Origin: Eubacteriales bacterium
GTDB lineage: Bacteria; Bacillota; Clostridia; Oscillospirales; CAG-272
Direction: 5' to 3'
Length of the DNA stretch: 50,481 nt
NCBI GenBank assembly: GCA_045532805.1
Contig: JAZSGQ010000023.1
Span: forward strand, 1-50,481
This document shows, piece by piece, positions 10,509 through 24,122 of this stretch. A model generated the notes under the pieces. That model saw nothing but the letters and a program-made list of their open reading frames with translations, was not told the origin of the DNA and searched no databases. Numbering within the stretch: the stretch's first letter is position 1; the number at the start of each line of letters is the position of its first letter. The position numbers were made by a program, and so were the translations under genes.

Positions 10509-11687
10509 ATGAAAGAATTTGAATTGAAATACGGCTGTAACCCCAATCAGAAGCCGGCTAAAATTTATATGGCAGACGGCTCGGAGCTGCCCATCAAGAT
10601 CCTGTGCGGCCGTCCCGGCTACATCAACTTCCTGGACGCATTCAACTCCTGGCAGCTTGTAAAGGAACTAAAGGCCGCGCTGGGTCTCCCCGCCGTGACC
10701 TCCTTCAAGCACGTCAGTCCCACCTCTGCCGCCGTCGGTATTCCGATGAGCGAAAAACTGATGAAGGCGTGCTTCGTCACGCCCGAAGAGGTCAGCACTC
10801 CTCTGGCGTGCGCTTACGCGCGTGCGCGCGGCACCGACCGTATGTGCTCCTTTGGTGACTGGGTGGCGCTCTCCGACGTATGTGACGTGCCCACCGCCAG
10901 ACTCATTCAGCGTGAGGTGTCCGACGGTATCATCGCCCCCGGCTACGAGCCCGAGGCACTTGAGATCCTGAAAAGCAAGCGCAAGGGCGCTTACAACATC
11001 GTCGAGATCGACGAGAACTATATCCCCGCCCCCGTGGAGACCAAGCAGGTCTTCGGCATCACCTTCGAGCAGGGACGCAACAACTTTGAGATCAACCGTG
11101 AACTCCTTGCCAATATCGTCACGGAGAATAAGGACCTGCCCGAGAGCGCGATCCGCGACCTGATCGTGTCGCTCATCACGCTCAAATACACCCAGTCCAA
11201 CTCGGTCTGCTACGCCGTGGACGGACAGGCCATCGGCGTGGGCGCGGGTCAGCAGTCGCGTATCCATTGCACGCGCCTTGCAGGCACCAAGGCCGACACG
11301 TGGTTCCTCCGTCAGCACGATAAGGTGCTGAACCTCCCCTTCCGCGCCGACCTCGCACGCCCCACGCGTGACAACGTGATCGACGGTTACATCAACCGCA
11401 ACGAGGAGGACGTTTGCGCCGACGGCAACTGGCAAAAGTACTTCACCGAGCAGCCCGCGCCCCTCACGGACGCGGAGATCCGCGCTTACCTGGACACCAT
11501 GGGGGGCGTTTCTCTCGGTTCCGACGCCTTCTTCCCCTTTGACGACAACGTTCAACGCGCCGCCGCCAGCGGTGTCAAGTACGTCGCAGAGCCCGGCGGC
11601 TCGATCCGTGACGACGCCGTGATCGACTGTGCCAACAAGTACGGCATGGTGATCGCCTTCACGGGTATGCGCCTGTTCCACCACTGA
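10509..11687 (+). CDS. purH: AICAR formyltransferase lacking the N-terminal IMP cyclohydrolase domain
   Basis: Starts at LKYGCNPNQ; SFKHVSP, GQQSRIHCTRLA, SDAFFPF, MRLFHH. Confidence 0.93.
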   Translation: MKEFELKYGCNPNQKPAKIYMADGSELPIKILCGRPGYINFLDAFNSWQLVKELKAALGLPAVTSFKHVSPTSAAVGIPMSEKLMKACFVTPEEVSTPLACAYARARGTDRMCSFGDWVALSDVCDVPTARLIQREVSDGIIAPGYEPEALEILKSKRKGAYNIVEIDENYIPAPVETKQVFGITFEQGRNNFEINRELLANIVTENKDLPESAIRDLIVSLITLKYTQSNSVCYAVDGQAIGVGAGQQSRIHCTRLAGTKADTWFLRQHDKVLNLPFRADLARPTRDNVIDGYINRNEEDVCADGNWQKYFTEQPAPLTDAEIRAYLDTMGGVSLGSDAFFPFDDNVQRAAASGVKYVAEPGGSIRDDAVIDCANKYGMVIAFTGMRLFHH

Positions 11688-11705
11688 TAAGGAGATACGG
11701 CAGGA

Positions 11706-12971
11706 ATGAATATTTTAGTCGTTGGCGGTGGCGGCCGTGAGCACGCCATCATCAAAAAATTAAAAGAAAGCCCCAAGGCAGAAAAAATCTATGCCCTGCC
11801 CGGTAACGGCGGCATCGCCGCCGATGCCGAGTGCTATCCCATCAAAGCGACCGATATCGAGGGCATCGTGGCGTTTGCCAAGTCGCACCCCGTGGATTTC
11901 GCCGTAGTCGCACCCGACGATCCGTTGGTGCTCGGTTGTGTGGACCGTCTGGAGGCCGAGGGCATTCCCTCTTTCGGTCCTCACGCGAATGCCGCCATCA
12001 TCGAGGGCAGTAAGGTCTTTTCCAAGGAACTGATGCACAAATACGGCATTCCCACCGCGGCAAGCGAGACCTTCGACGATCCCGACAAGGCCATCGCCTA
12101 TCTTGCAGGGCAGGACTATCCCACCGTCATCAAGGCGGACGGTCTGGCCCTGGGCAAGGGCGTGGTGATCGCGCAAAACTTTGAGGAGGCAAGCGGGGCC
12201 GTCAAGGAAATGATGTGCGACAAGGTCTTCGGCGAGAGCGGCAGTCGCATTCTCGTTGAGGAATTTATGACGGGTCCCGAGGTGTCCGTGCTGGCCTTTA
12301 TGGACGGCAAGACCGTGGTGCCGATGGTTTCCGCTATGGATCACAAGCGCGCAAAGGACAACGACGAGGGCCTCAACACGGGCGGCATGGGCACCGTCGC
12401 GCCCAACCCCTACTTTACCGCCGAGGTGGCGGCAGAGTGCATGGAAAAGATCTTCGTCCCCACCATGAACGCGATGAACGCCGAGGGCCGCACCTTCAAG
12501 GGTTGCCTGTTCTTCGGTCTGATGATCACCCCCAAGGGTCCCCGCGTGATCGAATACAACTGCCGCTTCGGCGACCCCGAAACGCAGGTCGTGCTCCCGC
12601 TTCTTCAAAGCGACCTTCTCACGATCATGCAAGCCGTTCACGATGAACGCTTGTCCGAGGTCGAGGTCAAATTTTCCACGGGCGCCGCGTGCTGTGTCGT
12701 GCTTGCCTCCAACGGCTACCCCAAAAAATACGACAGCGGCTTTGAGATGACCCTGCCCGAGACAGCCGAGAACGAGCATCTGTTCGTCGCAGGCGCAAAA
12801 CTGGAAGGCGACAAACTCCTCACCGCAGGCGGCCGTGTGATCGGCGCCGTGGCAACCGCCGAACATCTTGAGGCGGCCATCCAGCACGCCTACGAAGTAG
12901 CCGAGCGGGTACAGTTTGAAAACAAATATTGCAGACGCGACATCGGGGCACGCGCCCTTGCCGCCAAATAA
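11706..12971 (+). CDS. purD: Phosphoribosylamine-glycine ligase
   Basis: GGGGREHA, KADGLALGKGV, NTGGMG, EYNCRFGDPETQ. Confidence 0.97.
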   Translation: MNILVVGGGGREHAIIKKLKESPKAEKIYALPGNGGIAADAECYPIKATDIEGIVAFAKSHPVDFAVVAPDDPLVLGCVDRLEAEGIPSFGPHANAAIIEGSKVFSKELMHKYGIPTAASETFDDPDKAIAYLAGQDYPTVIKADGLALGKGVVIAQNFEEASGAVKEMMCDKVFGESGSRILVEEFMTGPEVSVLAFMDGKTVVPMVSAMDHKRAKDNDEGLNTGGMGTVAPNPYFTAEVAAECMEKIFVPTMNAMNAEGRTFKGCLFFGLMITPKGPRVIEYNCRFGDPETQVVLPLLQSDLLTIMQAVHDERLSEVEVKFSTGAACCVVLASNGYPKKYDSGFEMTLPETAENEHLFVAGAKLEGDKLLTAGGRVIGAVATAEHLEAAIQHAYEVAERVQFENKYCRRDIGARALAAK

Positions 12972-12981
12972 GGGAGACAGT

Positions 12982-15900
12982 ATGGTTTATAGAGTATACG
13001 TAGAGAAAAAGCCCGAGCTCGCACACGAGGCCGCAGGTCTTCTTGGCGAACTGAAAAATCTGGTCGGCATCAAGGCACTGGAATCGGTGCGTGTCATCAA
13101 CCGCTATGACGTGGAGAACATTGACGAGGCACTCTTCGGCGCGGCCGTCCGCACCATTTTCTCCGAGCCCCAGCTTGACGTTGTCAGCGATACGCTTGAC
13201 GCCAAGGGCGGCACCGTGTTCGCCGTAGAGCCGTTGCCAGGTCAGTTTGATCAGCGCGCCGACTCCGCCGCACAGTGCATTCAGTTGCAGAGTCAGGGCG
13301 AGCGCCCCACCGTGCGCTCCGCCAAAGTCTATGTGCTCAGCGGCGCTCTCACCGACGCCGACGTGGCCGAGATCAAAAAATTCGTCATCAACACCGTAGA
13401 GAGCCGCGAGGCCTCGCTGGACAAGCCCGAAACGCTTGCCATTCAGTACGCCATTCCCGCCACGGTCGCAACCGTCGAGGGCTTTACCGCACTGAACGAC
13501 AAGGGGCTTGCTGACTTGCTGGACAACCTCGGCCTTGCCATGGACGTGGACGATCTCAAGTTCCTGCAGGGCTATTTCCGTGACGAGGAAAAGCGCGACC
13601 CCACCATCACCGAAATCCGCGTGGTCGATACCTATTGGTCCGACCACTGCCGCCACACCACCTTCTCCACCCACATCGACAGCGTCAAGATCCACGATAA
13701 GGCAGTACAGGCCGCCTACGAGCGCTACCTCGCCGCCCGTGTGGAGGTCTACGGTGAGGAAAAGGCCGCCAAGCGTCCGCAAACGCTCATGGACATCGCC
13801 ACCATCGGTGCCAAGGTCCTCAAAAAAAGAGGCCTGCTCCCCGAACTTGACGAGAGTGAGGAGATCAACGCCTGCTCGATCCACGTCACCGCAAAGGTGA
13901 ACGGCGAGGACCAGGATTGGCTCTTGATGTTCAAGAACGAAACGCACAACCACCCCACCGAGATCGAGCCCTTCGGCGGTGCCGCCACCTGTATTGGCGG
14001 CTGTATCCGCGATCCCCTCTCGGGACGCGCTTACGTACATCAGGCGATGCGCGTCACAGGCGCAGGTGACCCCCGCAAAAAACTTGCAGACACCCTCCCG
14101 GGCAAACTCCCCCAGAGAAAACTCTGCCAGACCGCGGCCGCGGGCTATTCCTCCTACGGCAACCAGATCGGTCTTGCTACGGGACATGTGGCCGAGATCT
14201 ATCATGACGGCTACGTAGCCAAGAGACTGGAGTGCGGTGCCGTTGTGGCCGCCGCCCCCGCTTATAACGTGCGCCGCGAGCGCCCCGTCCCCGGCGACGT
14301 CGTCATTCTGCTTGGCGGTCGCACGGGCCGTGACGGCATCGGCGGTGCAACGGGCTCCTCCAAGAGCCACAATATGAAATCGCTTGCCACCATGGCATCC
14401 GAAGTGCAAAAGGGCAACGCCCCCGAGGAGCGCAAGATCCAGCGCCTGTTCCGCAACGCCGAGGTCACACGCCTTGTCAAGCGTTGCAACGACTTTGGTG
14501 CAGGCGGTGTCTCCGTCGCCATCGGCGAACTTGCCGACGGCCTTCGCATTGACCTGGACGCCGTACGCAAGAAGTACGATGGCCTGGACGGCACCGAACT
14601 TGCCATCTCCGAATCGCAGGAGCGTATGGCAGTGGTGGTCCCCGCCGTGGACGCCGATGCCTTCATCGCCTTTGCCGAGGCCGAGAACCTGGAGGCCTAC
14701 CGCGTGGCAGTCGTCACCAAGGAGGCGCGCATGGTCATGTCCTGGAAGGGACAAACGATCGCCGACCTCTCCCGCGATTTCCTCAACACCAACGGCGCGG
14801 ATAAGCACACCGCCGTAGCAGTGGAGGAAAAGGATCTGTCTGTGTTCAGCCGCGCCATGTACGGCTCGCTCCGCGAGATGGCGACCGACCTCAAGACAGC
14901 AAGCCGCCGCGGACTTGTAGAGCGCTTTGACGGCTCGATCGGCGCGGGCTCCGTGCTGATGCCCTTCGGCGGTAAAACGCAGAGAACGCCCGCACAGGCC
15001 ATGGCGGCGCTCCTGCCCGTCCTTCCCGGACAGAGCACCGACCAGGCAAGTGTCATGGCCTGGGGTCTGGACCCCGATCACATGAGCGTTGACCCCTACA
15101 CGGGTGCACACGCCGCCGTTTATACCTCTATGGCCAAACTTGTGGCCGCAGGTGCGGACTATAAGGCCGCATATCTGACGTTGCAGGAGTTCTTTGAGAA
15201 ACTCCGTAGTGACTCCACCCGTTGGGGCAAGCCCTTTGCGGCTCTGCTCGGCGCAATGGACGCACAGTTGGAACTCGGCGCCGCCGCCATCGGCGGTAAG
15301 GACTCCATGTCGGGTACCTTCCTGGATATGGACGTGCCCCCCACGCTGATCTCCTTTGCCATCGCCCCCGTCAAGGCAGACGAGGTGCTTTCCCCCGAAT
15401 TCAAGGAAGCGGGCCACCCCGTCTACCTGTTTGCTCCCACGGACGAGAGCGCCGAGAGCCAGAAGGCCGCTTGGGAGTCCTTCTACGCCCTGCACAAAGC
15501 AGGTAAGATCCGCGCCGCTTGGGCTGTGGAAAACGGTCTTTCCGAGGCCGTGATGAAGATGTCCTTCGGCAACGGGATCGGCTTCAAGTCCTGCGGCAAG
15601 GTAGGAGATCAGTGGCATCTCCCCTTCTACGGTTTTATCGTGGCCGAACTGTGCGAGGAGATCGACGCACCCTTTGCCATGCAGATCGGTGAAACCACCG
15701 CCGATCCCGAAATCGTACTGGACGGCGACCGCGCAAGCGTTGCCGAGTTGCTTGCACTCAATGAAGCAACGCTCGAAGGCGTTTACCCCACCGTCGCACC
15801 CACCAAGGAGAAGGAAGCCCCCGTATTTGCTTACGATAAGGGCACGAACGCCGCACCCGCGATCAAGTGCGCAAGCCCCCGCGTGCTGATCCCCGTATTC

Positions 15901-16683: not shown

Positions 16684-18357
16684 ATGGCATTTTTAACCGA
16701 TATTGAGATCGCGCAAAGCGCGAAAATGCAACCCATTACCGCAATTGCCGCAAAGGCGGGCGTGCCCGAGGACGCACTCGAGCAATACGGCCGCTATAAG
16801 GCCAAGGTGGACTACAATCTGCTGAACACCTCCACCCGCAAAGACGGTAAATTGATCCTTGTCACCGCCATTACGCCCACGCCCGCAGGCGAGGGAAAAA
16901 CCACCACCACCATCGGTCTTGCCGACGGCCTTTCCCGTACCGGCAAGAGCGTGGCCGTGGCGCTGCGCGAGCCCTCCTTGGGGCCCGTATTCGGTATCAA
17001 AGGCGGCGCCGCAGGCGGCGGTTATGCGCAGGTGGTACCCATGGAGGACATCAACCTCCACTTCACGGGCGACTTCCACGCCATCGGTGCCGCCAACAAC
17101 CTCGTTGCCGCTATGCTGGATAACCACATTCATCAGGGCAACGCGCTTCAGATCGACACGCGCCGCATCACCTGGAAGCGTTGTGTGGATATGAATGACC
17201 GCCAACTCCGCTTTGTAACCGACGGTCTTGGTGGCCGCATCAACGGCGTGCCGCGTGAGGACGGCTTTGACATCACCGTTGCCTCCGAGATCATGGCCGT
17301 GTTCTGCCTTGCCTCCTCGATGAGAGATCTCAAGGAGCGCCTTTCTCGTATCGTGGTGGCCTATACCTTTGACGAATCCCCCGTAACGGTGGGAGATATC
17401 GGCGCAACGGGCGCCGTCGCCGCACTGCTGAAGGACGCACTGAAACCCAACCTCGTGCAGACCCTGGAGGGCACACCTGCCTTTGTGCACGGCGGTCCCT
17501 TCGCCAACATCGCACACGGTTGTAACTCGGTGATCGCCACCCGTATGGCGATGAAACTCGCCGACTACGCCGTGACCGAGGCGGGCTTTGGCGCGGATCT
17601 GGGCGCCGAGAAATTCCTTGACATCAAGTGCCGTGCCGCAGGGCTTCGCCCCGCCGCCGTGGTACTGGTTGCCACCGTCCGCGCACTGAAGATGCACGGC
17701 GGCCTGCCCAAGACCGCACTTGGCGAGGAAAATCTCACGGCACTCGAGGCGGGTCTGCCGAATCTGCTCCGCCACCTCTCCAACATCAAGGACGTCTACC
17801 GTCTGCCCGCCGTGGTAGCGGTCAACCGCTTCCCCACCGATACCGATGCCGAGATCGCACTGGTCATGGAAAAATGCCGCGAAATGGGCGTCAACGTGGT
17901 GCTCTCTACCGTCTGGGCAGAGGGCGGCAAGGGCGGCGTGGCGCTCGCCGAAGAGGTGGTACGCCTTTGTGAACAGGACAACGGGTTCACCTTCGCTTAC
18001 GACACCGATGCCACCATCGAGGAAAAGGTCGCTACCATCGTGAAGCGCATTTACCGTGGCAACGGGGTGACTTTTACCCCCCAGGCGAAAAAGCAACTCG
18101 CCACGCTCGTGGCACACGGCTTCGACAAACTCCCCGTTTGTATGGCCAAAACGCAGTACAGCTTTTCGGACGATGCCGCACTGCTCGGCGCACCCGAGAA
18201 CTTCACCGTCACCGTCCGCAACCTCAAGGTCAGCGCGGGCGCGGGCTTCGTGGTCGCACTCACGGGTGACATCATGACGATGCCGGGGCTTCCCAAATCC
18301 CCCGCGGCGCTCCGTATCGACGTGGACGACGAGGGTAAGATCTCGGGACTGTTCTGA
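16684..18357 (+). CDS. fhs: Formate-tetrahydrofolate ligase
   Basis: [42 protein letters not shown]. Confidence 0.98.
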
Positions 18358-18368
18358 TCTTTCCTTGC

Positions 18369-18397
18369 AAAAACGGGAGGGCGCGCCCTCCCGTTTT
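18369..18397. terminator. pur operon terminator
   Basis: AAAACGGGAGGGC-GC-GCCCTCCCGTTTT. Confidence 0.8.
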
Positions 18398-18502
18398 CCT
18401 TTTTTAATTATTTTTTCAAAAAAACAAATTTTTTTGATAGATTTTCCTCTTTTTTTCGACCTTTATAGTAGAGCACCAATGCTCACAAGGAAGGAGAAGT
18501 CT

Positions 18503-19114
18503 ATGAAACAGGAACATCAGATGCCGATCAGGTCCCAAGCCCCCGCCTTTATGGCCGATGGGGATATCGTGGAGCTTTATTGGCAGCGCAACGAAAAGGC
18601 GATCGAGGAGACCGACCGCAAGTACGGAAAATATCTCTACGTCGTCGCCTACAACATCGTTCACGACCGCTTGGATTGCGAGGAGTGTCTGAACGATACC
18701 TATCTTGGCACCTGGAACAGGATCCCCCCGCACCGCCCCAGCGTGTTTCAGGTATTTCTCTCGCGCATTATGCGCAATATCGCCGTGGATAAGCTGCGCG
18801 CGAACACCGCGCACAAGCGCGTACCATCTGAAATGATGGTATCGCTTGACGAGCTGAACGACTGCATCTCAAGCGACCCGCCTCTGGAGGAGGAGGTCGC
18901 CATCAAGGAGCTTTCGCGCGTGCTCAACGACTATCTGCGCACACTCAACGACCGCGAGCAATTCGTGTTCGTTTGCCGCTACTACTATGCGGACAAGGTC
19001 TCCTCCATCGCGCGTATGCTGCAGGTGGGCGAGGCAACCGTGTTCCGCGAGCTTTCCGCGATCCGCGAGGGGCTCAAAAAACATCTGGAGAAGGAGGGCT
19101 TTGACCGTGGATAA
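18503..19114 (+). CDS. ECF-type RNA polymerase sigma factor
   Basis: Region 2 DCEECLNDTYLGTW...FLSRIMRNIAVDKLR; region 4 LNDREQFVFVCRYY...SIARMLQVGEATV; AAGGAG RBS. Confidence 0.9.
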   Translation: MKQEHQMPIRSQAPAFMADGDIVELYWQRNEKAIEETDRKYGKYLYVVAYNIVHDRLDCEECLNDTYLGTWNRIPPHRPSVFQVFLSRIMRNIAVDKLRANTAHKRVPSEMMVSLDELNDCISSDPPLEEEVAIKELSRVLNDYLRTLNDREQFVFVCRYYYADKVSSIARMLQVGEATVFRELSAIREGLKKHLEKEGFDRG

Positions 19115-22100
19115 AAAGCAAAACAGATGGCTCGGCGCCCTCTCTCACATGGACGATGAGATCGTCGAAAAGCAAACGCATCAGCGTATCCTTCTTCTCT
19201 CGGGTGTAAAACGGCGCCGTTTCACCAAGCGGCTGTGGATCTCGGTCGGCTCCATGGCTGCGGCCCTGTTACTTGTCTTATCCTCCCTGCTCGTCCTCAT
19301 TCCGCTTCTTTCCAAGCAGGTGCCCATCTACACAGGCATGACCGTGTCGGGAAAGAATGACACGCCTACTCTTTCGTATGTGAGCGATCCCTTACAATAC
19401 GCGGCTCCCGGCACAAATAACGGCAATCATTACGGACAGTACAAGGGCGACTACGCAGGCCGCGAGGAGACCTTCGAGGAGATGCAAGAAAATCCGCTTG
19501 AGGATCACCTTCTGGTAACGGGCGGCGCACAATCGTTTTACACCGCCAAGCCCGGGGAAACCGTTCTGATCACCGTGCATTTCAACAACCCCGATGACTT
19601 TGAGATCCTCTCCTTCACCCTGAACGGCGAGAAATACGCCAGCCATATGTTCCGCGACGGATCAGACATGGAGAACATCATCGTTGAGGTCAACGTCGGT
19701 GACACCGAGGGTGTGGTAGAGTACACTATTGATGCCATCAAGTACGTAGACGGCACCGAGATCAAAGACGTCCGCATGGAGGGTGACGCAACCGTTCGGA
19801 TCGGCATTGCCGCAAACACCCAGCCCACAACGACCGTTACAAGCGAAAAAATCTCCTTTGATTCCGTTTCCTTCGATCTCGTGAACGAGGACGAGTTTGA
19901 CCTGATTACACTGAGCAACGGCACACTCACCGCCGTTCTCTATGACGGAAACGAGATCCTGTTCAAAAAAGATCTCCTTGCAACGGAAAACGCTTCGGTG
20001 AGCTTTGATGGGCTTTCGCCCAACCGCGTATACCAATATGCCGTCATCGCGCACTACGACGCCTTCGACGGCAACGGCGTGGCGGATCATATTCTCGTGC
20101 AAAAGACGTTTCGCACCGCTTGTCCCGTACTGTTTGACGGCATAACGGTGGGAATAAGCTCGCTTTCCTTTTCCTATCTCTGGGACGAGCAGGCCGCCGA
20201 CAGCACGATCTCGGCATCTCTTTGGCAAAACGGCATCCAGATCCGTGATATCGGTGCGGCCACGGCCATAAGCAACCTATTACCGAATACAGCCTACACA
20301 CTGGTAGCAAGCTACCGCGTGAACGGAAAGATTGAGCAGATCACACTGGAATTCACAACCGATCCGCTTATCTATACCGTGCGTTATCTGCTGGAATCGC
20401 CGGAAATCGGTTCCTACGCACTGACGGATGAGCAAAGCGTCTCTCTCGAACCCGGAGCCGCCTTTGCGCCCGAGGTGATTATGTTTGAGGGATTCACCTC
20501 TCCCAACGCCATCGTGAGGACTGCCTCCGTAGATGACCCCAACCCCGTAGTGGAATATCACTACACCCGCAACAGCTATTCTATTTCCTTTATGTCGGGT
20601 GGCTCCATGCACGCGGACACCCTTCGCTACGGCGAAACGCTGCCAAGCGGCGTGCGAGAGGGCTTCGTCTTCCTTGGCTGGTTTGACGCAAACGGTACGC
20701 AGTACACGACGGTTCCCGCAAAAAACATTGCCCTGTACGCCAGATACTCGCAAGAGCTTACCGCAGAGGATTTCTTCTATTCCGGCTCTACTGAGATCAC
20801 CATCACGGGTCTTAAAAATCTTGCGGTTACCGAGCTCGTAATCCCCGCCTACATCAACGGTGCAAGGGTGACGGGCATAGGCGCACAGGCGTTCAAAGAC
20901 AATACCCTGCTCACAAGCGTCACGCTTCCTTCTACGCTCCAAACCGTCGGCGCAGGTGCCTTTACAGGCTGTAGCGGATTGAGATCCACCTATTATGAGG
21001 GGACACTCGCCGATTGGTGCGGCATCACGTTTGAAAAAGACAGCAACGTCCAGCAAAATGAAGAGTTCCTCTACCCTGCGGAATATTATGCCGCCAACCC
21101 CATCGTATTGAGCCAAACGCTCTATCTTCTTTCCGCACCCACCGTGAACGTTCTCGGGGCCGAGATGACGCTGCCCGCCAATATCGCAACAGGCGGCTCC
21201 CTTTCCTTTGCGTGCAGCCCCATCACCAAACTCATCATCCCCGAGGGTGCTGTGCACGTTCCCTACGGCGCGTTTGCGGGTTGCCGCGATCTCACCGCGA
21301 TTCATTTTGACGCCACCGACATGCCCGATCATACCGGCAACTATTTGTATAGCATGCTCGGCGCAGGCGCGAACGGTGACGGCGTTGCCATCAGGATCGG
21401 TGAGGGCGTCACCCGTGTACCCGGCAGTCACTTGTTCCATGGCGCTAAGATTTGTGCGATCACCTTTGCCTCGGGCAGCAGATGCACCGAGATCGGCGCA
21501 CATGCATTCCAGACGGGCTATCGGGACGGCGCCTCGAAAAACATGTGCACCGAGCTCATACTCCCCGATGGACTTCTTACGATCGAAGCATACGCATTCA
21601 TTGGCATCGGCTCGGTCACGACCCTCTCGCTCCCGGACGGGCTCACCGCGATCGGCGATTACGCGTTCGCGGGCATCAGGTCGCTCACGTCTCTTGCGAT
21701 CCCCGCAAGCGTGACCACGCTCGGCACGTCGCCCTTTTCCGTATGCACCTCGCTTACGACTCTGACGATCCCTCGCGTACAGGACAAGCTCGCCACAATG
21801 CTTGGCACCAAGCCCTCCAATCTCCAAAGCGTGACGGTGCTGGGCGGCACGCAGCTGGCGGCAAGTGCATTTGCCGGCTACACCCACCTTACGAAGGTAT
21901 CGCTCCCCGGTACGCTGACCGAGATCGGCGGATCCGCCTTCAAGGGCTGCACACAGCTTGAGAGCATCACGCTACCCAACTCGGTAACAAAGCTCGATCA
22001 ATATGTTTTCCGGGACTGTGCGGCTCTCACAAACGTGACGCTTGGCAACGCCCTGCAGCAAATTGGCATCGGCACGTTCTTCGGCTGCACCTCTCTTGCA

Positions 22101-23759
22101 GACGTTTCACTGCCCTTAACGCTGACGAGCATTGGCAACCTGGTGTTCTCGGGCTGTACGGGTCTTACGAGCATCGTGATTCCCGACAGCGTTACCTCGG
22201 TTGGCACAAATCTTTTCAAGGATTGTGCAGATCTGATCACGGCAACGTTGCCCGCGATCGCATTGAGTGGATTGCCGCGCACCATTGTGTCGATCACCGT
22301 CACAAGCGGCACGAGCATCGGCGCCAATGCACTTCAGAATTGCACGAAGCTTACAAGCATCAAGATCCCCGAGAGCGTTACGACCATCGGCGCATATGCG
22401 TTCTCGGGTTGTACGAGCCTTTCCGACGTCGCGCTCCCCTCTGCGCTGAAGAGCATCGGTCGCTATGCCTTCCAGAACTGCGCGTTCGAGCAGCTTGCAA
22501 CGCCCGATTCCGTTACGCAGATCGGCCATGGATTTTTGGCAGGATGCCCCATTACCTCCCTTGTTATTTCACCCAACGTTACGAGTCTGAAGGGTCTGCT
22601 TTATGACGTTAAGCTTCTGACGGATCTCACCATACCGAATTGCGATTCCTACACAAGCTTGTATGACGGCACCACACTCGCCGAAGCCACGATCATACGT
22701 CTCACGCTTCGCGGCGGCACGGACACCTTCTTCCTTGATGCCTCCTGCACCTCGCTCGAGACTCTCACCATCACAAGCTGTGCTGGCACGATCCTCAGCT
22801 ACGATTCCTACGGAACCAATTGCCCCAATCTGACCTCTGTCAGCATTGGCGACGGCGTGACCGTCATCAACCGTTCTTCGTTTGCAGGATGCACGCGCCT
22901 TGCCAACGTTTCTCTGCCGAGCACGCTCAAAACCATTGAAAACGGGGCCTTCCAAAATTGCACGAGTCTTAGCGAGATAGCCATCCCCGAAGGCGTTGTT
23001 ACGATCGGCTCTGAAACCTTCCAAAATTGCAAAGCTATGGAAGCCGTATCCCTCCCGAGTACGCTGAAAGACATCGGAAGCAACGCATTTTGGGGGTGCA
23101 CCAACCTCAGATCCGCCCCCCTCCCGAACGGCCTCGAGAACCTGGGCTCCGGCGCGTTTGCAAATTGCACGGCGCTTCCCCTTACCGTCCATGAAAGCGG
23201 AAAATATCTTGGCAACGAAGAAAACCCGTATCTCGCGCTGATCGAAGCAACCGTCAGCACGAGCGGCTTTGAATTTTTGGAGCAAACCAGGATTATTGGC
23301 GGTAATGCCTTCGAGGGAAGCAGCCTTGACGTTCTCGTGATTCCCGAAAGCATCATCAGCATCTGCGACGATGCCTTCAGCTGGAGCGGTCTTGTAAGCG
23401 TGACTATCCATTGCAGGATCATTGGCGATCGCGCGTTTTATAACGCCCACCAGCTTCAGACCGTGGTACTTGGTGAAAACGTGGAGAGCATCGGCAGCGA
23501 TGCCTTTGTCGACACGGGCATCACCTCCATCACGATCCCCGACGGAGTCACGGGAATCGGTAACGGTGCTTTTAGCTCGTGCACCTCCCTTTCAAGCATA
23601 ACGATCTCCAATAGCGTTACAAGCATTGGAGCTTACGCCTTTGAGGGCTGCGACGACCTGACCGTGCATTTTATGGGCAGCAAGCAGGAATGGGACGCTA
23701 TCGACATTGGCGAGAGGAACGATGCCTTGATCTACGCCGAGATCATCTTCGCCGAATAA
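19107..23759 (+). CDS. Large single-pass membrane protein: anti-sigma-like N-terminus, FN3-like, MucBP-like and InlB-B-repeat-like stalk, BspA/TpLRR leucine-rich-repeat array
   Basis: GTG after AAGGAGG overlapping the sigma stop; ALSHMDDEIVE motif, basic patch and one TM helix; many LTSIxIPxSVTxIGxxAFxGC repeats; GFVFLGWF B-repeat. Confidence 0.85.
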   Translation: MDKKQNRWLGALSHMDDEIVEKQTHQRILLLSGVKRRRFTKRLWISVGSMAAALLLVLSSLLVLIPLLSKQVPIYTGMTVSGKNDTPTLSYVSDPLQYAAPGTNNGNHYGQYKGDYAGREETFEEMQENPLEDHLLVTGGAQSFYTAKPGETVLITVHFNNPDDFEILSFTLNGEKYASHMFRDGSDMENIIVEVNVGDTEGVVEYTIDAIKYVDGTEIKDVRMEGDATVRIGIAANTQPTTTVTSEKISFDSVSFDLVNEDEFDLITLSNGTLTAVLYDGNEILFKKDLLATENASVSFDGLSPNRVYQYAVIAHYDAFDGNGVADHILVQKTFRTACPVLFDGITVGISSLSFSYLWDEQAADSTISASLWQNGIQIRDIGAATAISNLLPNTAYTLVASYRVNGKIEQITLEFTTDPLIYTVRYLLESPEIGSYALTDEQSVSLEPGAAFAPEVIMFEGFTSPNAIVRTASVDDPNPVVEYHYTRNSYSISFMSGGSMHADTLRYGETLPSGVREGFVFLGWFDANGTQYTTVPAKNIALYARYSQELTAEDFFYSGSTEITITGLKNLAVTELVIPAYINGARVTGIGAQAFKDNTLLTSVTLPSTLQTVGAGAFTGCSGLRSTYYEGTLADWCGITFEKDSNVQQNEEFLYPAEYYAANPIVLSQTLYLLSAPTVNVLGAEMTLPANIATGGSLSFACSPITKLIIPEGAVHVPYGAFAGCRDLTAIHFDATDMPDHTGNYLYSMLGAGANGDGVAIRIGEGVTRVPGSHLFHGAKICAITFASGSRCTEIGAHAFQTGYRDGASKNMCTELILPDGLLTIEAYAFIGIGSVTTLSLPDGLTAIGDYAFAGIRSLTSLAIPASVTTLGTSPFSVCTSLTTLTIPRVQDKLATMLGTKPSNLQSVTVLGGTQLAASAFAGYTHLTKVSLPGTLTEIGGSAFKGCTQLESITLPNSVTKLDQYVFRDCAALTNVTLGNALQQIGIGTFFGCTSLADVSLPLTLTSIGNLVFSGCTGLTSIVIPDSVTSVGTNLFKDCADLITATLPAIALSGLPRTIVSITVTSGTSIGANALQNCTKLTSIKIPESVTTIGAYAFSGCTSLSDVALPSALKSIGRYAFQNCAFEQLATPDSVTQIGHGFLAGCPITSLVISPNVTSLKGLLYDVKLLTDLTIPNCDSYTSLYDGTTLAEATIIRLTLRGGTDTFFLDASCTSLETLTITSCAGTILSYDSYGTNCPNLTSVSIGDGVTVINRSSFAGCTRLANVSLPSTLKTIENGAFQNCTSLSEIAIPEGVVTIGSETFQNCKAMEAVSLPSTLKDIGSNAFWGCTNLRSAPLPNGLENLGSGAFANCTALPLTVHESGKYLGNEENPYLALIEATVSTSGFEFLEQTRIIGGNAFEGSSLDVLVIPESIISICDDAFSWSGLVSVTIHCRIIGDRAFYNAHQLQTVVLGENVESIGSDAFVDTGITSITIPDGVTGIGNGAFSSCTSLSSITISNSVTSIGAYAFEGCDDLTVHFMGSKQEWDAIDIGERNDALIYAEIIFAE

Positions 23760-23763
23760 CCCA

Positions 23764-23836
23764 AAAAACGGGGCGAGAAATCGCCCCGTTGCATAAAAAT
23801 AAGCCGTTCCGAGCAACTCGGAACGGCTTATTTTTC
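23764..23836. terminator. Two adjacent hairpins between convergent genes
   Basis: AACGGGGCGA-GAAA-TCGCCCCGTT and AATAAGCCGTTCCGA-GCAAC-TCGGAACGGCTTATT. Confidence 0.75.
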
Positions 23837-24034
23837 TTCCTTCACATACACCAAAATGTCCTCTACTCTGCAATCCAAGAATGTGCACAGATCATTCAGC
23901 GTAACCGTGCTGATCGGTTTATTGTGTTTCAAGCGATCGAGCAGACTGGTGCTGACCCCGTATTGATGGATCAGCTTATACGTCGTCATACCCTTTGCCT
24001 TCATCGTCTTGTAAAAGGGTGCATAGGAAATCAT
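23828..24034 (-). CDS. Small Cro/C1-type HTH regulator (YozG/HTH_26-like)
   Basis: MISYAPFYKTM...LLDRLKHNKPISTVTLNDLCTFLDCRVEDIL; GAGGTG RBS. Confidence 0.85.
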   Translation of the reverse strand: MISYAPFYKTMKAKGMTTYKLIHQYGVSTSLLDRLKHNKPISTVTLNDLCTFLDCRVEDILVYVKEEK

Positions 24035-24093: not shown

Positions 24094-24122
24094 AGTATAC
24101 CGCCAACAGCGTCATTTGTCAA
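24094..24122 (-). promoter_or_regulatory. SigA promoter of the HTH gene
   Basis: On - strand TTGACA-17 bp-TATACT. Confidence 0.7.

What the first reader, a model, noticed from the sequence alone, without database searches (positions are those of the whole stretch)
18503..23759. ECF sigma factor coupled to a giant LRR-ectodomain protein: putative LRR receptor-type anti-sigma system
Seen: a two-gene unit bounded by terminators, with overlapping reading frames (GTG19107 inside the sigma gene end). The partner has a ~40-aa cytoplasmic N-terminus (ALSHMDDEIVE, like clostridial anti-sigma N-termini), one TM helix (~19235-19310), a stalk of two FN3-like, one MucBP-like and one InlB-B-like domain (~19820-20750), then ~1000 aa of BspA/TpLRR repeats. 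No LPxTG, SLH or dockerin anchor is visible. Known: anti-sigma factors with extracellular sensors exist (RsgI-CBM, RsiV); BspA-type LRRs are described mainly as protein-binding adhesins. Inference: a one-step transmembrane signalling system in which an LRR solenoid senses an extracellular protein ligand and releases the sigma factor. This is the best candidate for an undescribed system in the window.
Basis: partly seen in the sequence, partly recalled or inferred. Interest (0 to 1): 0.78.

Follow-up and report, generated by a model that had tools for sequence, protein, structure and literature searches.

The report
Sigma factor with LRR-tipped anti-sigma partner
A gut Clostridia bacterium carries a small alternative sigma factor next to a giant membrane protein whose short inner tail probably holds the sigma factor inactive and whose outer part is a long leucine-rich-repeat rod, one member of a very large family of such pairs that databases do not label as anti-sigma factors.

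Summary
An ECF-type sigma gene (18503-19114) overlaps by 8 nt a 1550-aa partner gene (19107-23759), and the pair lies between terminators. The partner has a 42-residue basic N-terminus and one membrane helix. Outside follow three FN3-like domains, one Listeria-Bacteroides repeat and about 930 residues of BspA-type LRR_5 repeats.

The anti-sigma reading is supported by computation only.
- Of 93 related sigma genes, 91 are followed, mostly with a 4-nt overlap, by a gene with the same N-terminal motif plus helix but a different ectodomain (LRR, serpin, M23 peptidase, beta-propeller, mostly unknown).
- A profile of this module finds 9,833 cluster representatives.
- It matches no Pfam, NCBIfam or PDB entry.
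- A complex model of sigma with partner residues 1-46 scores 0.90 against 0.00 for the best control.

A conserved two-block promoter precedes the sigma gene. In this genome its only close copies precede two other BspA-type LRR surface-protein genes. That link was not found in two relatives searched.

Ligand sensing by the LRR rod remains inference. I rate this a new variant of a known kind (ECF sigma with a single-pass anti-sigma), of moderate to high interest.

The parts
18370..18397 (+). Intrinsic terminator of the upstream formate-tetrahydrofolate ligase gene. It marks the 5' boundary of the unit.
   Evidence: 12-bp stem, 7 GC pairs, T run. (FTHFS at 16684-18354).
18435..18460 (+). Candidate autoregulated promoter: -35 TGATAG (18435-18440), a 16-nt T-rich spacer, and -10 CGAC (18457-18460), 43 nt before the sigma start codon.
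   Evidence: A two-block motif sits at a conserved distance (~-77) in 93 upstream regions. The orthologue-group PWM scores this site 18.6, which is within the random-genome range. Near-identical copies occur at two other loci of the genome.
18503..19114 (+). ECF-type (group 4) sigma-70 family sigma factor, 203 aa.
   Evidence: The closest solved relative is SigW 5wuq, E 1.3e-10.
19107..23759 (+). Partner gene, 1550 aa: a single-pass type II membrane protein and putative anti-sigma factor.
19107..19232 (+). Cytoplasmic N-terminus (aa 1-42): the conserved sigma-binding motif (W..L..ALSHMDDEIVEK) followed by a basic stretch.
   Evidence: Alignments A2 and A5. Profile specificity. Predicted contacts of residues 1-37 with sigma regions 2 and 4.
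19233..19313 (+). Single transmembrane helix (aa 43-69), carrying the family's conserved AA(C/A) pair.
   Evidence: the only Kyte-Doolittle peak. (A51 and A52 nearly invariant).
19533..20375 (+). Three tandem FN3-like beta-sandwich domains (aa ~143-423). This is the conserved 'stalk' of the orthologue clade.
   Evidence: blocks with pLDDT 82-96. (best PDB matches are tandem FnIII, E 6.4e-10). (homologous in 15 of 94 partners).
20577..20741 (+). Listeria-Bacteroides repeat (Flg_new) domain, aa 491-545.
   Evidence: E 6.1e-06, 26.7 bits against a cut-off of 27.
20868..23666 (+). BspA-type LRR_5 repeat region.
   Evidence: E 1.9e-162, 8 stretches. (eight LRR_5 matches between these coordinates). 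(HupY/LrrG-like at 205 bits, far below the 1250-bit cut-off).
23767..23835 (.). Two hairpins after the stop codon. The second (23795-23835) is flanked by an A-run and a T-run, so it is a bidirectional terminator. Together they mark the 3' boundary of the unit.

Best explanation
This is a co-transcribed ECF sigma factor and its cognate single-pass anti-sigma factor.

Proposed mechanism:
1. The first ~40 residues of the 1550-aa partner lie in the cytoplasm. They clamp sigma regions 2 and 4 and hold the sigma factor inactive at the membrane (predicted, not measured).
2. The ectodomain is a flexible linker, three FN3-like domains, a Listeria-Bacteroides repeat and a ~930-residue BspA-type LRR solenoid. 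It projects from the cell.
3. An event at the ectodomain (ligand binding, pulling or proteolytic clipping) is inferred to start regulated proteolysis. A site-2 protease of the M50 family is encoded in the genome. This frees the sigma factor (inferred by analogy with RsiW, RsiV and RsgI).
4. The free sigma factor is proposed to transcribe from TGATAG-N16-CGAC promoters. These precede its own operon (positive autoregulation) and, in this genome, two further genes for BspA-type LRR surface proteins (sequence evidence only).

The pair belongs to a very large family in gut and rumen Clostridia. In that family the same short N-terminal module is fused to many different ectodomains.
For: 1. Gene arrangement. 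The two genes overlap by 8 nt, there is one promoter-like site upstream, and terminators lie on both sides.

2. The sigma is ECF-type.

3. Linkage.
- In 30 loci of the same GTDB family, 32 of 33 sigma ORFs have a same-strand partner starting within -26 to +2 nt; 25 have a 4-nt overlap.
- In 80 loci of other genomes, 91 of 93 have such a partner, and 70 of the 91 have a 4-nt overlap. A hydrophobic segment follows in 88 of 91, and the motif regex matches 82 of 91.

4. Swapped ectodomains. Of 82 complete partners, 9 match LRR_5, 3 Serpin, 3 Peptidase_M23, 1 Beta_propel, 1 DUF4349, 1 VWA and 1 SBP_bac_1. Most match nothing. The paralogue pair in this genome (contig C97) has a Beta_propel ectodomain.

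5. Module specificity.
- An HMM built on one set of N-termini hits 91 of 94 partners of the other set, median 45.6 bits.
- Among this genome's ORFs it hits only the two sigma-linked proteins (55.3 and 37.9 bits; the next scores 11.1).
- A profile of 120 N-termini finds 9,833 representatives at E<=1e-3. In nearly all of the best 150 the match starts at residue 1.

6. Complex model of sigma with partner residues 1-46.
- Score 0.90 in each of three runs; best of 3 controls 0.00.
- The mark was reached by 58 of 80 solved complexes and 2 of 110 mismatched pairs. These counts hold only roughly because my own alignments were used.
- The runs agree in >=94% of contacts, and the partner's pLDDT is >=82.
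- Partner residues 1-37 touch sigma residues 81-99 and 111-173.
- The partner profile has no sequence match in the PDB, so the pass does not come from likeness of the partner to a solved chain.

7. Orthologues. The closest sigmas (55-63% identity) pair with partners that share the stalk (15 found). Nine of those carry LRR_5.

8. Promoter.
- A two-block motif lies ~77 nt before the start codon in most of the 93 upstream regions. Its -35 and -10 letters are clade-specific.
- A PWM built from 13 orthologue sites, with this genome left out, has its top hit in this genome at C26:3230, score 28.9. The next hit scores 22.2. The maxima of 6 random genomes were 16.1-23.4.
- TGATAGA-N8-TTTTTTTCGAC occurs only twice in the genome: here and at C26. 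A third close copy lies at C74, which is the same locus as C43.
- Both extra sites sit 45-49 nt before genes with a signal sequence and LRR_5 repeats.
- Only ~12 loci of the genome carry LRR_5, and the other 9 lack the motif.

9. A Peptidase_M50 gene is present (C38, E 5.2e-64).
Against: - There is no experimental datum of any kind. No RNA data could be found.
- The complex score is the model's own confidence, and ECF sigma/anti-sigma complexes are a well-solved class on the sigma side.
- The window's own promoter site scores 18.6 and ranks 11th in the genome. That is within the range of random-genome maxima. Its credibility rests on its position and on the near-identical C26 and C74 copies.
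- The extended LRR regulon was not reproduced in two orthologue genomes. Exact-pattern searches in G020 and G124 found the operon's own promoter plus one hit each that is not promoter-like and not before an LRR gene, at the level of the control.
- The LRR part is dispensable in the clade. Six stalk-type partners lack it, and others carry Glug or fn3 domains instead. The LRR rod may therefore be an effector or adhesin rather than the sensor.
- The partner's LRR is not specially similar to the LRRs of the two putative target genes.
- The ECF group could not be assigned.
Confidence: 0.68

Rival explanations
1. Self-reporting surface protein rather than ligand receptor. The partner is first of all a BspA-type adhesin or coat protein. 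Its N-terminal sigma-binding tag gives feedback: each intact molecule in the membrane sequesters one sigma. Shedding or proteolytic damage of the ectodomain frees sigma, so that the coat (its own operon plus the other LRR proteins) is re-made. No specific ligand is sensed.
For: - Ectodomains in the family include effector-like domains: Serpin 3, Peptidase_M23 3, VWA 1 and LRR_5 9 of 82.
- The LRR part varies from absent to 8 stretches within the orthologue clade.
- The candidate targets are other LRR surface proteins.
- This reading shares all the sigma-binding evidence of the best explanation.
Against: - Nothing distinguishes this reading from ligand sensing with the present data.
- Known systems of this design that I recall (RsgI with carbohydrate-binding modules, RsiV with lysozyme) do sense specific ligands.
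Confidence: 0.22
2. Plain activator plus cargo. The sigma factor only switches on the downstream adhesin gene. The partner's N-terminus is a long signal-anchor with no sigma binding.
For: - The N-terminus matches no known anti-sigma family.
- It is only 42 residues long, shorter than class I anti-sigma domains. Passages read in PMC7406223 give 101 +/- 33 aa for these.
Against: - A pure anchor would not keep a cytoplasmic motif conserved across 9,833 cluster representatives with unrelated ectodomains.
- The motif is found only after sigma genes in this genome.
- The complex model scores 0.90 against a best control of 0.00 (58 of 80 solved complexes and 2 of 110 mismatched pairs reached the mark).
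- A 4-nt overlap, suggesting translational coupling, occurs in 70 of 91 pairs.
Confidence: 0.07
3. Cleaved secretion signal. The N-terminal ~70 residues are removed, and the LRR protein is released or attached to the wall by other means.
For: None beyond the presence of a hydrophobic segment near the N-terminus.
Against: - The region before the helix is 42 residues long, carries 11 K+R and is conserved.
- No small-residue cleavage motif follows the helix (the sequence reads ...IPLLSKQVP).
- There is no LPxTG, SLH or other anchor.
Confidence: 0.03

Closest known systems
SigI/RsgI systems of cellulolytic clostridia (passages read in PMC6056542; listing and abstract of PMC6582324)
   Same: - Many paralogous sigma/anti-sigma operons per genome.
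- Each is autoregulated.
- Each anti-sigma has a cytoplasmic sigma-binding N-terminus, one helix and a variable extracellular module.
- The sensor module is of the same kind as the regulated surface proteins.
   Different: - The sigma here has a normal region 4 (Sigma70_ECF and r4 hits), not the SigI-C domain.
- The partner gives no RsgI_N hit.
- The ectodomain is an LRR solenoid, not a carbohydrate-binding module.
[quoted passage not shown]
   Same: - A very short cytoplasmic sigma-binding part (<50 aa) followed by one helix.
- Predicted contacts with both sigma regions 2 and 4.
   Different: - No sequence similarity was detected.
- From recall, CnrY is a small protein that works with a separate periplasmic sensor, whereas here a ~1480-residue ectodomain is fused.
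- The phylum differs.
- The geometry of the predicted interface was not compared with the CnrY structure.
SigV/RsiV and other DUF4179-type anti-sigma factors of Firmicutes (passages read in PMC7826278; listing and abstract of PMC9044953)
   Same: Firmicutes ECF sigma with a single-pass anti-sigma. Activation by regulated intramembrane proteolysis is the model I borrow.
   Different: - DUF4179 does not match this protein.
- It matches 4 of 31 family N-termini only faintly (best E 0.026) and 1 of 82 whole partners (2.2e-9).
BspA-type LRR (Pfam LRR_5) surface proteins; NCBIfam HupY/LrrG adhesin model
   Same: The outer ~930 residues are LRR_5 repeats. The HupY/LrrG model scores 205 bits.
   Different: - That score is far below the HupY/LrrG cut-off of 1250, so the protein is not an equivalog.
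- The other LRR_5 proteins of this genome start with lipoprotein-like or ordinary signal sequences and have no sigma gene upstream.
- Only this one carries the sigma-binding N-terminus.

Membership tests
ECF (group 4) sigma-70 family sigma factors | Only regions 2 and 4 are present, with no region 3 or 1.1; length about 200 aa. | tested here: met
   203 aa. Sigma70_r2 at aa 39-102, Sigma70_ECF at 85-196 and r4 at 145-180, with no r3 hit. TIGR02937 scores 75.9 bits against a cut-off of 42.9.
ECF (group 4) sigma-70 family sigma factors | Co-transcribed cognate anti-sigma factor. | tested here: inconclusive
   The gene order, overlap and conserved partner module are shown. Binding is only predicted.
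ECF (group 4) sigma-70 family sigma factors | Autoregulation from a group-specific -35/-10 promoter. | tested here: inconclusive
   A conserved two-block motif lies upstream. No transcript data are available.
ECF (group 4) sigma-70 family sigma factors | Assignment to a numbered ECF group (classification 2.0). | not testable with these tools
   All specific NCBIfam sigma models score below their cut-offs. The group descriptions sit in the supplements of PMC7826278, which are closed.
Class I anti-sigma domain (ASDI, zinc-binding or not) | A four-helix cytoplasmic domain of about 100 aa, often with HxxxCxxC. | tested here: not met
   Only 42 cytoplasmic residues, with no Cys. No zf-HC2 or RskA hit. 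ASDI size is taken from passages of PMC7406223.
Class II anti-sigma domain (CnrY-like) | A short (<50 aa) two-helix cytoplasmic part that binds sigma regions 4 and 2. | tested here: inconclusive
   The size fits. The predicted contacts touch both regions. No sequence similarity was found, and no comparison of structures was made.
RsgI-type anti-sigma-I factors | An RsgI_N domain, with a cognate sigma that carries the SigI-C domain. | tested here: not met
   No RsgI_N hit in the partner or in 31 family N-termini. The sigma has region 4.
DUF4179 / RsiV-type anti-sigma factors | A DUF4179 domain around the helix. | tested here: not met
   No hit for this protein. 4 of 31 N-termini match at E >= 0.026. 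1 of 82 partners matches at 2.2e-9.
BspA-type LRR proteins (Pfam LRR_5) | Tandem LRR_5 repeat units. | tested here: met
   E 1.9e-162, 532.5 bits, 8 stretches.
Sortase-, SLH- or dockerin-anchored surface proteins | A C-terminal LPxTG with a hydrophobic tail, or SLH or dockerin modules. | tested here: not met
   No such Pfam hits. The only LPxTG-like string, LPNTA at aa 392, is internal, and there is a single hydrophobic segment at aa 43-69.

The most novel reading that the evidence does not exclude
A bacterial counterpart of LRR receptor signalling. A ~930-residue LRR solenoid on an FN3 stalk is wired through one helix and a 40-residue clamp directly to an RNA-polymerase sigma factor. That sigma factor controls a small regulon of BspA-type LRR surface proteins.

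More broadly, gut Clostridia would use a previously unannotated mini anti-sigma tag (at least 9,833 sequence clusters). With it, many different surface modules (LRR rods, serpins, M23 peptidases, beta-propellers) would report their own engagement or cleavage to transcription.
Probability: 0.3. Interest if true: 0.8.

Novelty: new variant of a known kind. Interest (0 to 1): 0.58.

Why it matters
BspA-type LRR proteins are abundant in gut and oral anaerobes. From recall, they are known mostly as adhesins, and how commensal Clostridia regulate them is essentially unknown. This locus offers a concrete, testable handle: a dedicated sigma factor, a predicted 40-residue inhibitory peptide, a defined promoter and two candidate target genes.

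The wider result may matter more. A short sigma-binding module without any Pfam or NCBIfam model heads thousands of otherwise unrelated membrane proteins that public records call 'leucine-rich repeat protein' or 'hypothetical'. The census of class I anti-sigma domains deliberately dropped domains under 50 aa (passages of PMC7406223). This class is therefore likely under-counted in current pictures of signal transduction in gut Firmicutes.

Tried and rejected
No earlier notes were seen. The look-up of encoding contigs is marked closed and was not called.
- Expression: no RNA holder was listed.
- Insertion test: in the two same-genus genomes, fhs and pyrC are not neighbours. Whether the pair is an insertion between them could not be tested.
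- Conservation of the extended regulon:
  - Exact-pattern searches with the orthologues' own -35/-10 letters in G020 and G124 found the operon's own promoter plus one hit each. Those hits lie inside or beside non-LRR genes, at control level.
  - In 21 orthologue loci the PWM hits of 17 or more were the 16 sigma promoters, one site before a PP2C/kinase operon 258 nt away, and one on the opposite strand.
- I asked whether the partner's LRR resembles those of the candidate targets. It does not do so specially; C94 and C44 are closer.
- Known-family searches on the N-terminus (Pfam, NCBIfam, PDB profile) gave nothing significant.
- The structure of residues ~424-600 had pLDDT under 50 with my shallow alignment. 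The MucBP-like claim could be neither confirmed nor excluded.
- Literature: seven searches were run. No listed title or abstract describes an anti-sigma factor with an LRR or BspA ectodomain or this N-terminal module. I read listings and abstracts, plus passages of PMC7826278, PMC6056542 and PMC7406223. The supplements of PMC7826278, which describe each ECF group, are closed and may already list this group with a 'putative anti-sigma factor'.
- The signal-peptide reading and the plain-anchor reading were considered and given low odds (see the rival explanations).
Full report
WHAT IS THERE. The window lies in a 1.8-Mb, 100-contig genome (92.4% complete). The relatives found are gut and rumen Clostridia assemblies labelled Oscillospiraceae, Eubacteriales, Lachnospiraceae, Christensenellales and others.

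The unit sits between two housekeeping blocks. Upstream are purine genes and formate-tetrahydrofolate ligase, which ends in a terminator at 18370-18397. Downstream, beyond a small minus-strand gene at 23828-24034, are pyrimidine genes.

The sigma gene runs from ATG 18503 to 19114 (203 aa). It has Sigma70_r2, Sigma70_ECF and r4 hits and passes TIGR02937 sigma70-ECF. Every more specific NCBIfam sigma model scores below its cut-off.

The partner starts at GTG 19107, nine bases after a GGAGG, and so overlaps the sigma gene by 8 nt. It ends at 23759. Two hairpins follow immediately (-48.2 kcal/mol, z -11.2). The second is flanked by A and T runs.

ANATOMY OF THE PARTNER.
- Residues 1-42 are hydrophilic (11 K+R, 5 D+E) and end in KRRRFTKR.
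- Residues 43-69 form the only hydrophobic segment of the protein.
- There is no C-terminal sorting signal.
- An AlphaFold2 model of residues 69-600, from a 16-row alignment, has mean pLDDT 65.9. It is confident for model residues 75-355 (partner ~143-423). These form three beta-sandwich domains whose best PDB matches are tandem fibronectin type III domains (4gh7_D at 6.4e-10; titin 8bxr).
- Pfam adds a Listeria-Bacteroides repeat at 491-545, just under its cut-off, and LRR_5 at E 1.9e-162 in 8 stretches. The genome search places LRR_5 matches between 20868 and 23666.
I see three FN3-like domains and one InlB-B-type repeat, with no MucBP-like domain detected. Residues ~424-600 are poorly modelled.

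IS THE N-TERMINUS AN ANTI-SIGMA MODULE?

(a) Linkage.
- The sigma has homologues at E<=1e-20 in 107 of 151 genomes of the same GTDB family, counting this one.
- In 30 loci from these genomes, 32 of 33 sigma ORFs are followed on the same strand by an ORF that starts within -26 to +2 nt; 25 overlap by 4 nt.
- In 80 loci from a species-level genome collection, 91 of 93 sigma ORFs have such a partner; the other 2 lie at locus edges. Of the 91, 70 overlap by 4 nt, 88 have a hydrophobic segment after the N-terminus, and 82 match my motif expression.

(b) Conserved head, swapped body.
- The partners align over the first ~65 residues. The pattern is a hydrophobic-x-x-hydrophobic stretch, then (I/L/M)-D-x-(D/E)-hydrophobic-hydrophobic-E, a K/R-rich stretch, and a helix with a nearly invariant AA(C) pair. 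They do not align beyond that.
- Of 82 complete partners, 9 carry LRR_5, 3 Serpin, 3 Peptidase_M23, 3 Flg_new, and one each DUF4349, Beta_propel, DUF4179, VWA and SBP_bac_1. Most have no Pfam domain.
- This genome's second pair (contig C97, sigma 42% identical) has a Beta_propel ectodomain.

(c) Specificity.
- An HMM of the head built from the first set of loci finds 91 of 94 partners of the second set (median 45.6 bits).
- Among all ORFs of at least 120 aa in this genome, it finds only the two proteins that follow the two sigma genes (55.3 and 37.9 bits; the next scores 11.1).
- A profile of 120 heads finds 9,833 representatives of 50%-identity clusters at E<=1e-3 and 647 at 1e-10. In nearly all of the best 150 the match begins at residue 1. 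Those 150 proteins are 54-677 aa long.

(d) Known families. The head has no significant match in Pfam, NCBIfam or PDB sequences. There are only faint DUF4179 hits: 4 of 31, with E >= 0.026.

(e) Complex model of sigma plus partner residues 1-46, both given as alignments.
- The score is 0.90 in all three runs, against 0.00 for the best of three controls.
- The tool's calibration: the mark was reached by 58 of 80 solved complexes and 2 of 110 mismatched pairs. This holds only roughly because my own alignments were used.
- The runs agree in at least 94% of contacts, and the partner's pLDDT is at least 82.
- Partner residues 1-37 contact sigma residues 81-99 (end of region 2) and 111-173 (linker and region 4).
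- This supports binding but does not show it.
- With 42 cytoplasmic residues the head is far shorter than class I anti-sigma domains (101 +/- 33 aa). It falls in the under-50-aa range that the class I census discarded as possible class II. The one solved class II member, CnrY, uses two helices to bind regions 4 and 2 (passages of PMC7406223).

THE LRR CLADE.
- The sigmas closest to this one (55-63% identity) pair with partners that share the segment after the helix (KQVP-x-Y-x-GMTVS) and the FN3-like stalk. Fifteen such partners were found among 94. Nine carry LRR_5, and six end after the stalk.
- Two LRR-bearing partners have another stalk.
- In the large protein library, 648 proteins of 852-2713 aa match residues 1-430 at E<=1e-10. 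Only the 8000 candidates sharing most words were scored. Most carry LRR_5; some carry Glug, fn3 or nothing. The few with names are called 'leucine-rich repeat (domain-containing) protein' or 'hypothetical protein', never anti-sigma.
- Within the GTDB family the stalk type is patchy. It was found in 6 of 151 genomes searched, counting this one, and in neither of the two same-genus genomes.
- The conserved core of this clade is therefore sigma plus head plus stalk. The LRR rod is a frequent add-on of variable length.

PROMOTER AND CANDIDATE REGULON.
- A Gibbs search over the 93 upstream regions found a two-block motif about 77 nt before the start codon. It has an A-rich lead, a -35 block, a T-rich spacer and a -10 block. 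The letters differ between sigma sub-clades.
- In the LRR clade the motif reads about AAA..TG.CAG-N16-CGACT.TATAG. Here it is TGATAG (18435-18440), N16, CGAC (18457-18460).
- I built a PWM from 13 orthologue sites, leaving this genome out, and scanned the whole genome. The window's own site scored 18.6 (rank 11). That is within the maxima of six Markov-2 random genomes (16.1-23.4), so it is not significant on score alone.
- The top hit, C26:3230, scored 28.9, above the next hit (22.2) and above all six random maxima.
- That site has the same TGATAGA, the same spacing, the same T7 run and the same CGAC as the window's site. The 18-letter pattern TGATAGA-N8-TTTTTTTCGAC occurs only at these two places in the genome.
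- A third close copy (TGATAGG...T7-A-CGAC, followed by TATATAGTGAGGCACC as in the window) lies at the end of contig C74 and again on C43, evidently one locus.
- The C26 site precedes, by 49 nt, a gene with a lipoprotein-like signal sequence, collagen-like repeats and LRR_5; the gene is cut by the contig end. The C74 site precedes, by about 45 nt, a 697-aa protein with a signal-anchor, Cys-rich repeats and LRR_5 at 2.2e-91.
- Only about 12 loci in the genome carry LRR_5, and the other nine lack the motif (PWM <= 6). The association with LRR genes is thus unlikely to be chance in this genome.
- Against this, exact-pattern searches in two orthologue genomes found nothing beyond the operon's own promoter. 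In orthologue loci the motif otherwise marks only the sigma genes. The extended regulon is thus a hypothesis for this genome alone.

HOW IT MOST LIKELY WORKS.
- Shown by sequence: a two-gene operon, an ECF-type sigma, a type II membrane partner with an LRR ectodomain, and a conserved head.
- Predicted: the head clamps regions 2 and 4 of the sigma.
- Inferred by analogy with Firmicutes systems (RsiV: abstract of PMC9044953; RsgI: passages of PMC6056542): an event at the ectodomain leads to cleavage. A site-2 protease (Peptidase_M50 at C38, E 5.2e-64) then releases the head, and the freed sigma transcribes its own operon and, here, two further LRR surface-protein genes.
The effector-like ectodomains elsewhere in the family (serpins, M23 peptidases) and the dispensability of the LRR part within the clade give the second view real weight.

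COMPARISON AND NOVELTY.
- In logic the system is closest to SigI/RsgI of cellulolytic clostridia: many paralogous, autoregulated pairs with swapped extracellular modules related to the regulated surface proteins. It fails both defining features of that family (no RsgI_N; a normal region 4).
- It is not a class I (about 100 aa, four-helix) anti-sigma domain, and it has no DUF4179.
- It resembles class II (CnrY) in size and in the predicted dual contact, without sequence similarity.
- Seven literature searches listed no title or abstract describing an anti-sigma factor with a BspA/LRR ectodomain or this head module. The ECF classification's per-group supplements were closed, so the sigma group may already be catalogued with an unnamed 'putative anti-sigma factor'.
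- I therefore rate it a new variant of a known kind. The architecture is canonical. The ectodomain type, the unannotated mini-module and its scale, and the possible LRR regulon are new.

VERDICT.
- Confidence that this is a sigma/anti-sigma pair acting as described: 0.68.
- Interest: 0.58.

Noticed in passing
G000 contig C97:13203-15703 (locus L035:1201-3698, minus strand): This is the second sigma/partner pair of the genome. The sigma is 42% identical. A 647-aa partner overlaps it, has the same N-terminal motif and carries a Beta_propel ectodomain (E 8.4e-73).
   Followed up: partly
Partners in loci L036-L115 (alignment A3): Three of 82 complete partners carry a Serpin domain (best E 6.6e-90) and three a Peptidase_M23 domain behind the same sigma-binding head. 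A membrane-anchored serpin wired to a sigma factor could act as a protease sensor. I did not record which loci these are.
   Followed up: no
G000 contig C26:3236-4020 (L117), and C74:17130-19292 (L116), the same locus as C43:1-139: Two genes for BspA-type LRR surface proteins lie behind near-copies of the window's promoter. One is lipoprotein-like with collagen-like GEQGPQ repeats. The other has four Cys-rich ~40-aa repeats. Both lie at contig ends, so the C26 gene is incomplete.
   Followed up: partly
L039:10433-10472, then 10691-14493: A second copy of that genome's own sigma promoter (same TGCAAG and CGAC letters, PWM 21.1) lies just after the LRR partner gene. It is 258 nt before a PP2C phosphatase / Ser-Thr kinase operon, as I read the translations; no Pfam search was run on them.
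   Followed up: no
L100:3668-5041: This looks like a decayed pair. A shortened sigma ORF (151 aa) is followed, after a 38-nt gap, by a 293-aa LRR-like ORF without the head or helix.
   Followed up: no
G075:C7:20239-20553 (L125): A second stalk-type fragment in that genome is 62% identical over 104 aa and has an in-frame TGA. It lies next to a sigma match that covers only residues 50-200, so it is possibly a pseudogene pair.
   Followed up: no
window 18461-18475, and the same place in orthologue promoters: The letters just after the -10 block (T-TATAG-T-R-AGG) are conserved across the orthologue clade and in the C74 site. This is more than a -10 element alone would need. It could be a start-site or leader element.
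   Followed up: no
window 23828-24034 (minus strand): A 68-aa ORF between the unit and the pyrimidine operon reads like a small helix-turn-helix (XRE-type) regulator by eye. It has its own promoter-like sites at 24094-24122. No family search was run.
   Followed up: no
G000 contig C59 (locus L126), and G008:C78 (L124): Proteins of about 1190 aa share the first part of the stalk (37-39% identity over ~200 aa). In this genome there is no sigma gene upstream, so the stalk domains also occur outside the sigma-linked family.
   Followed up: no
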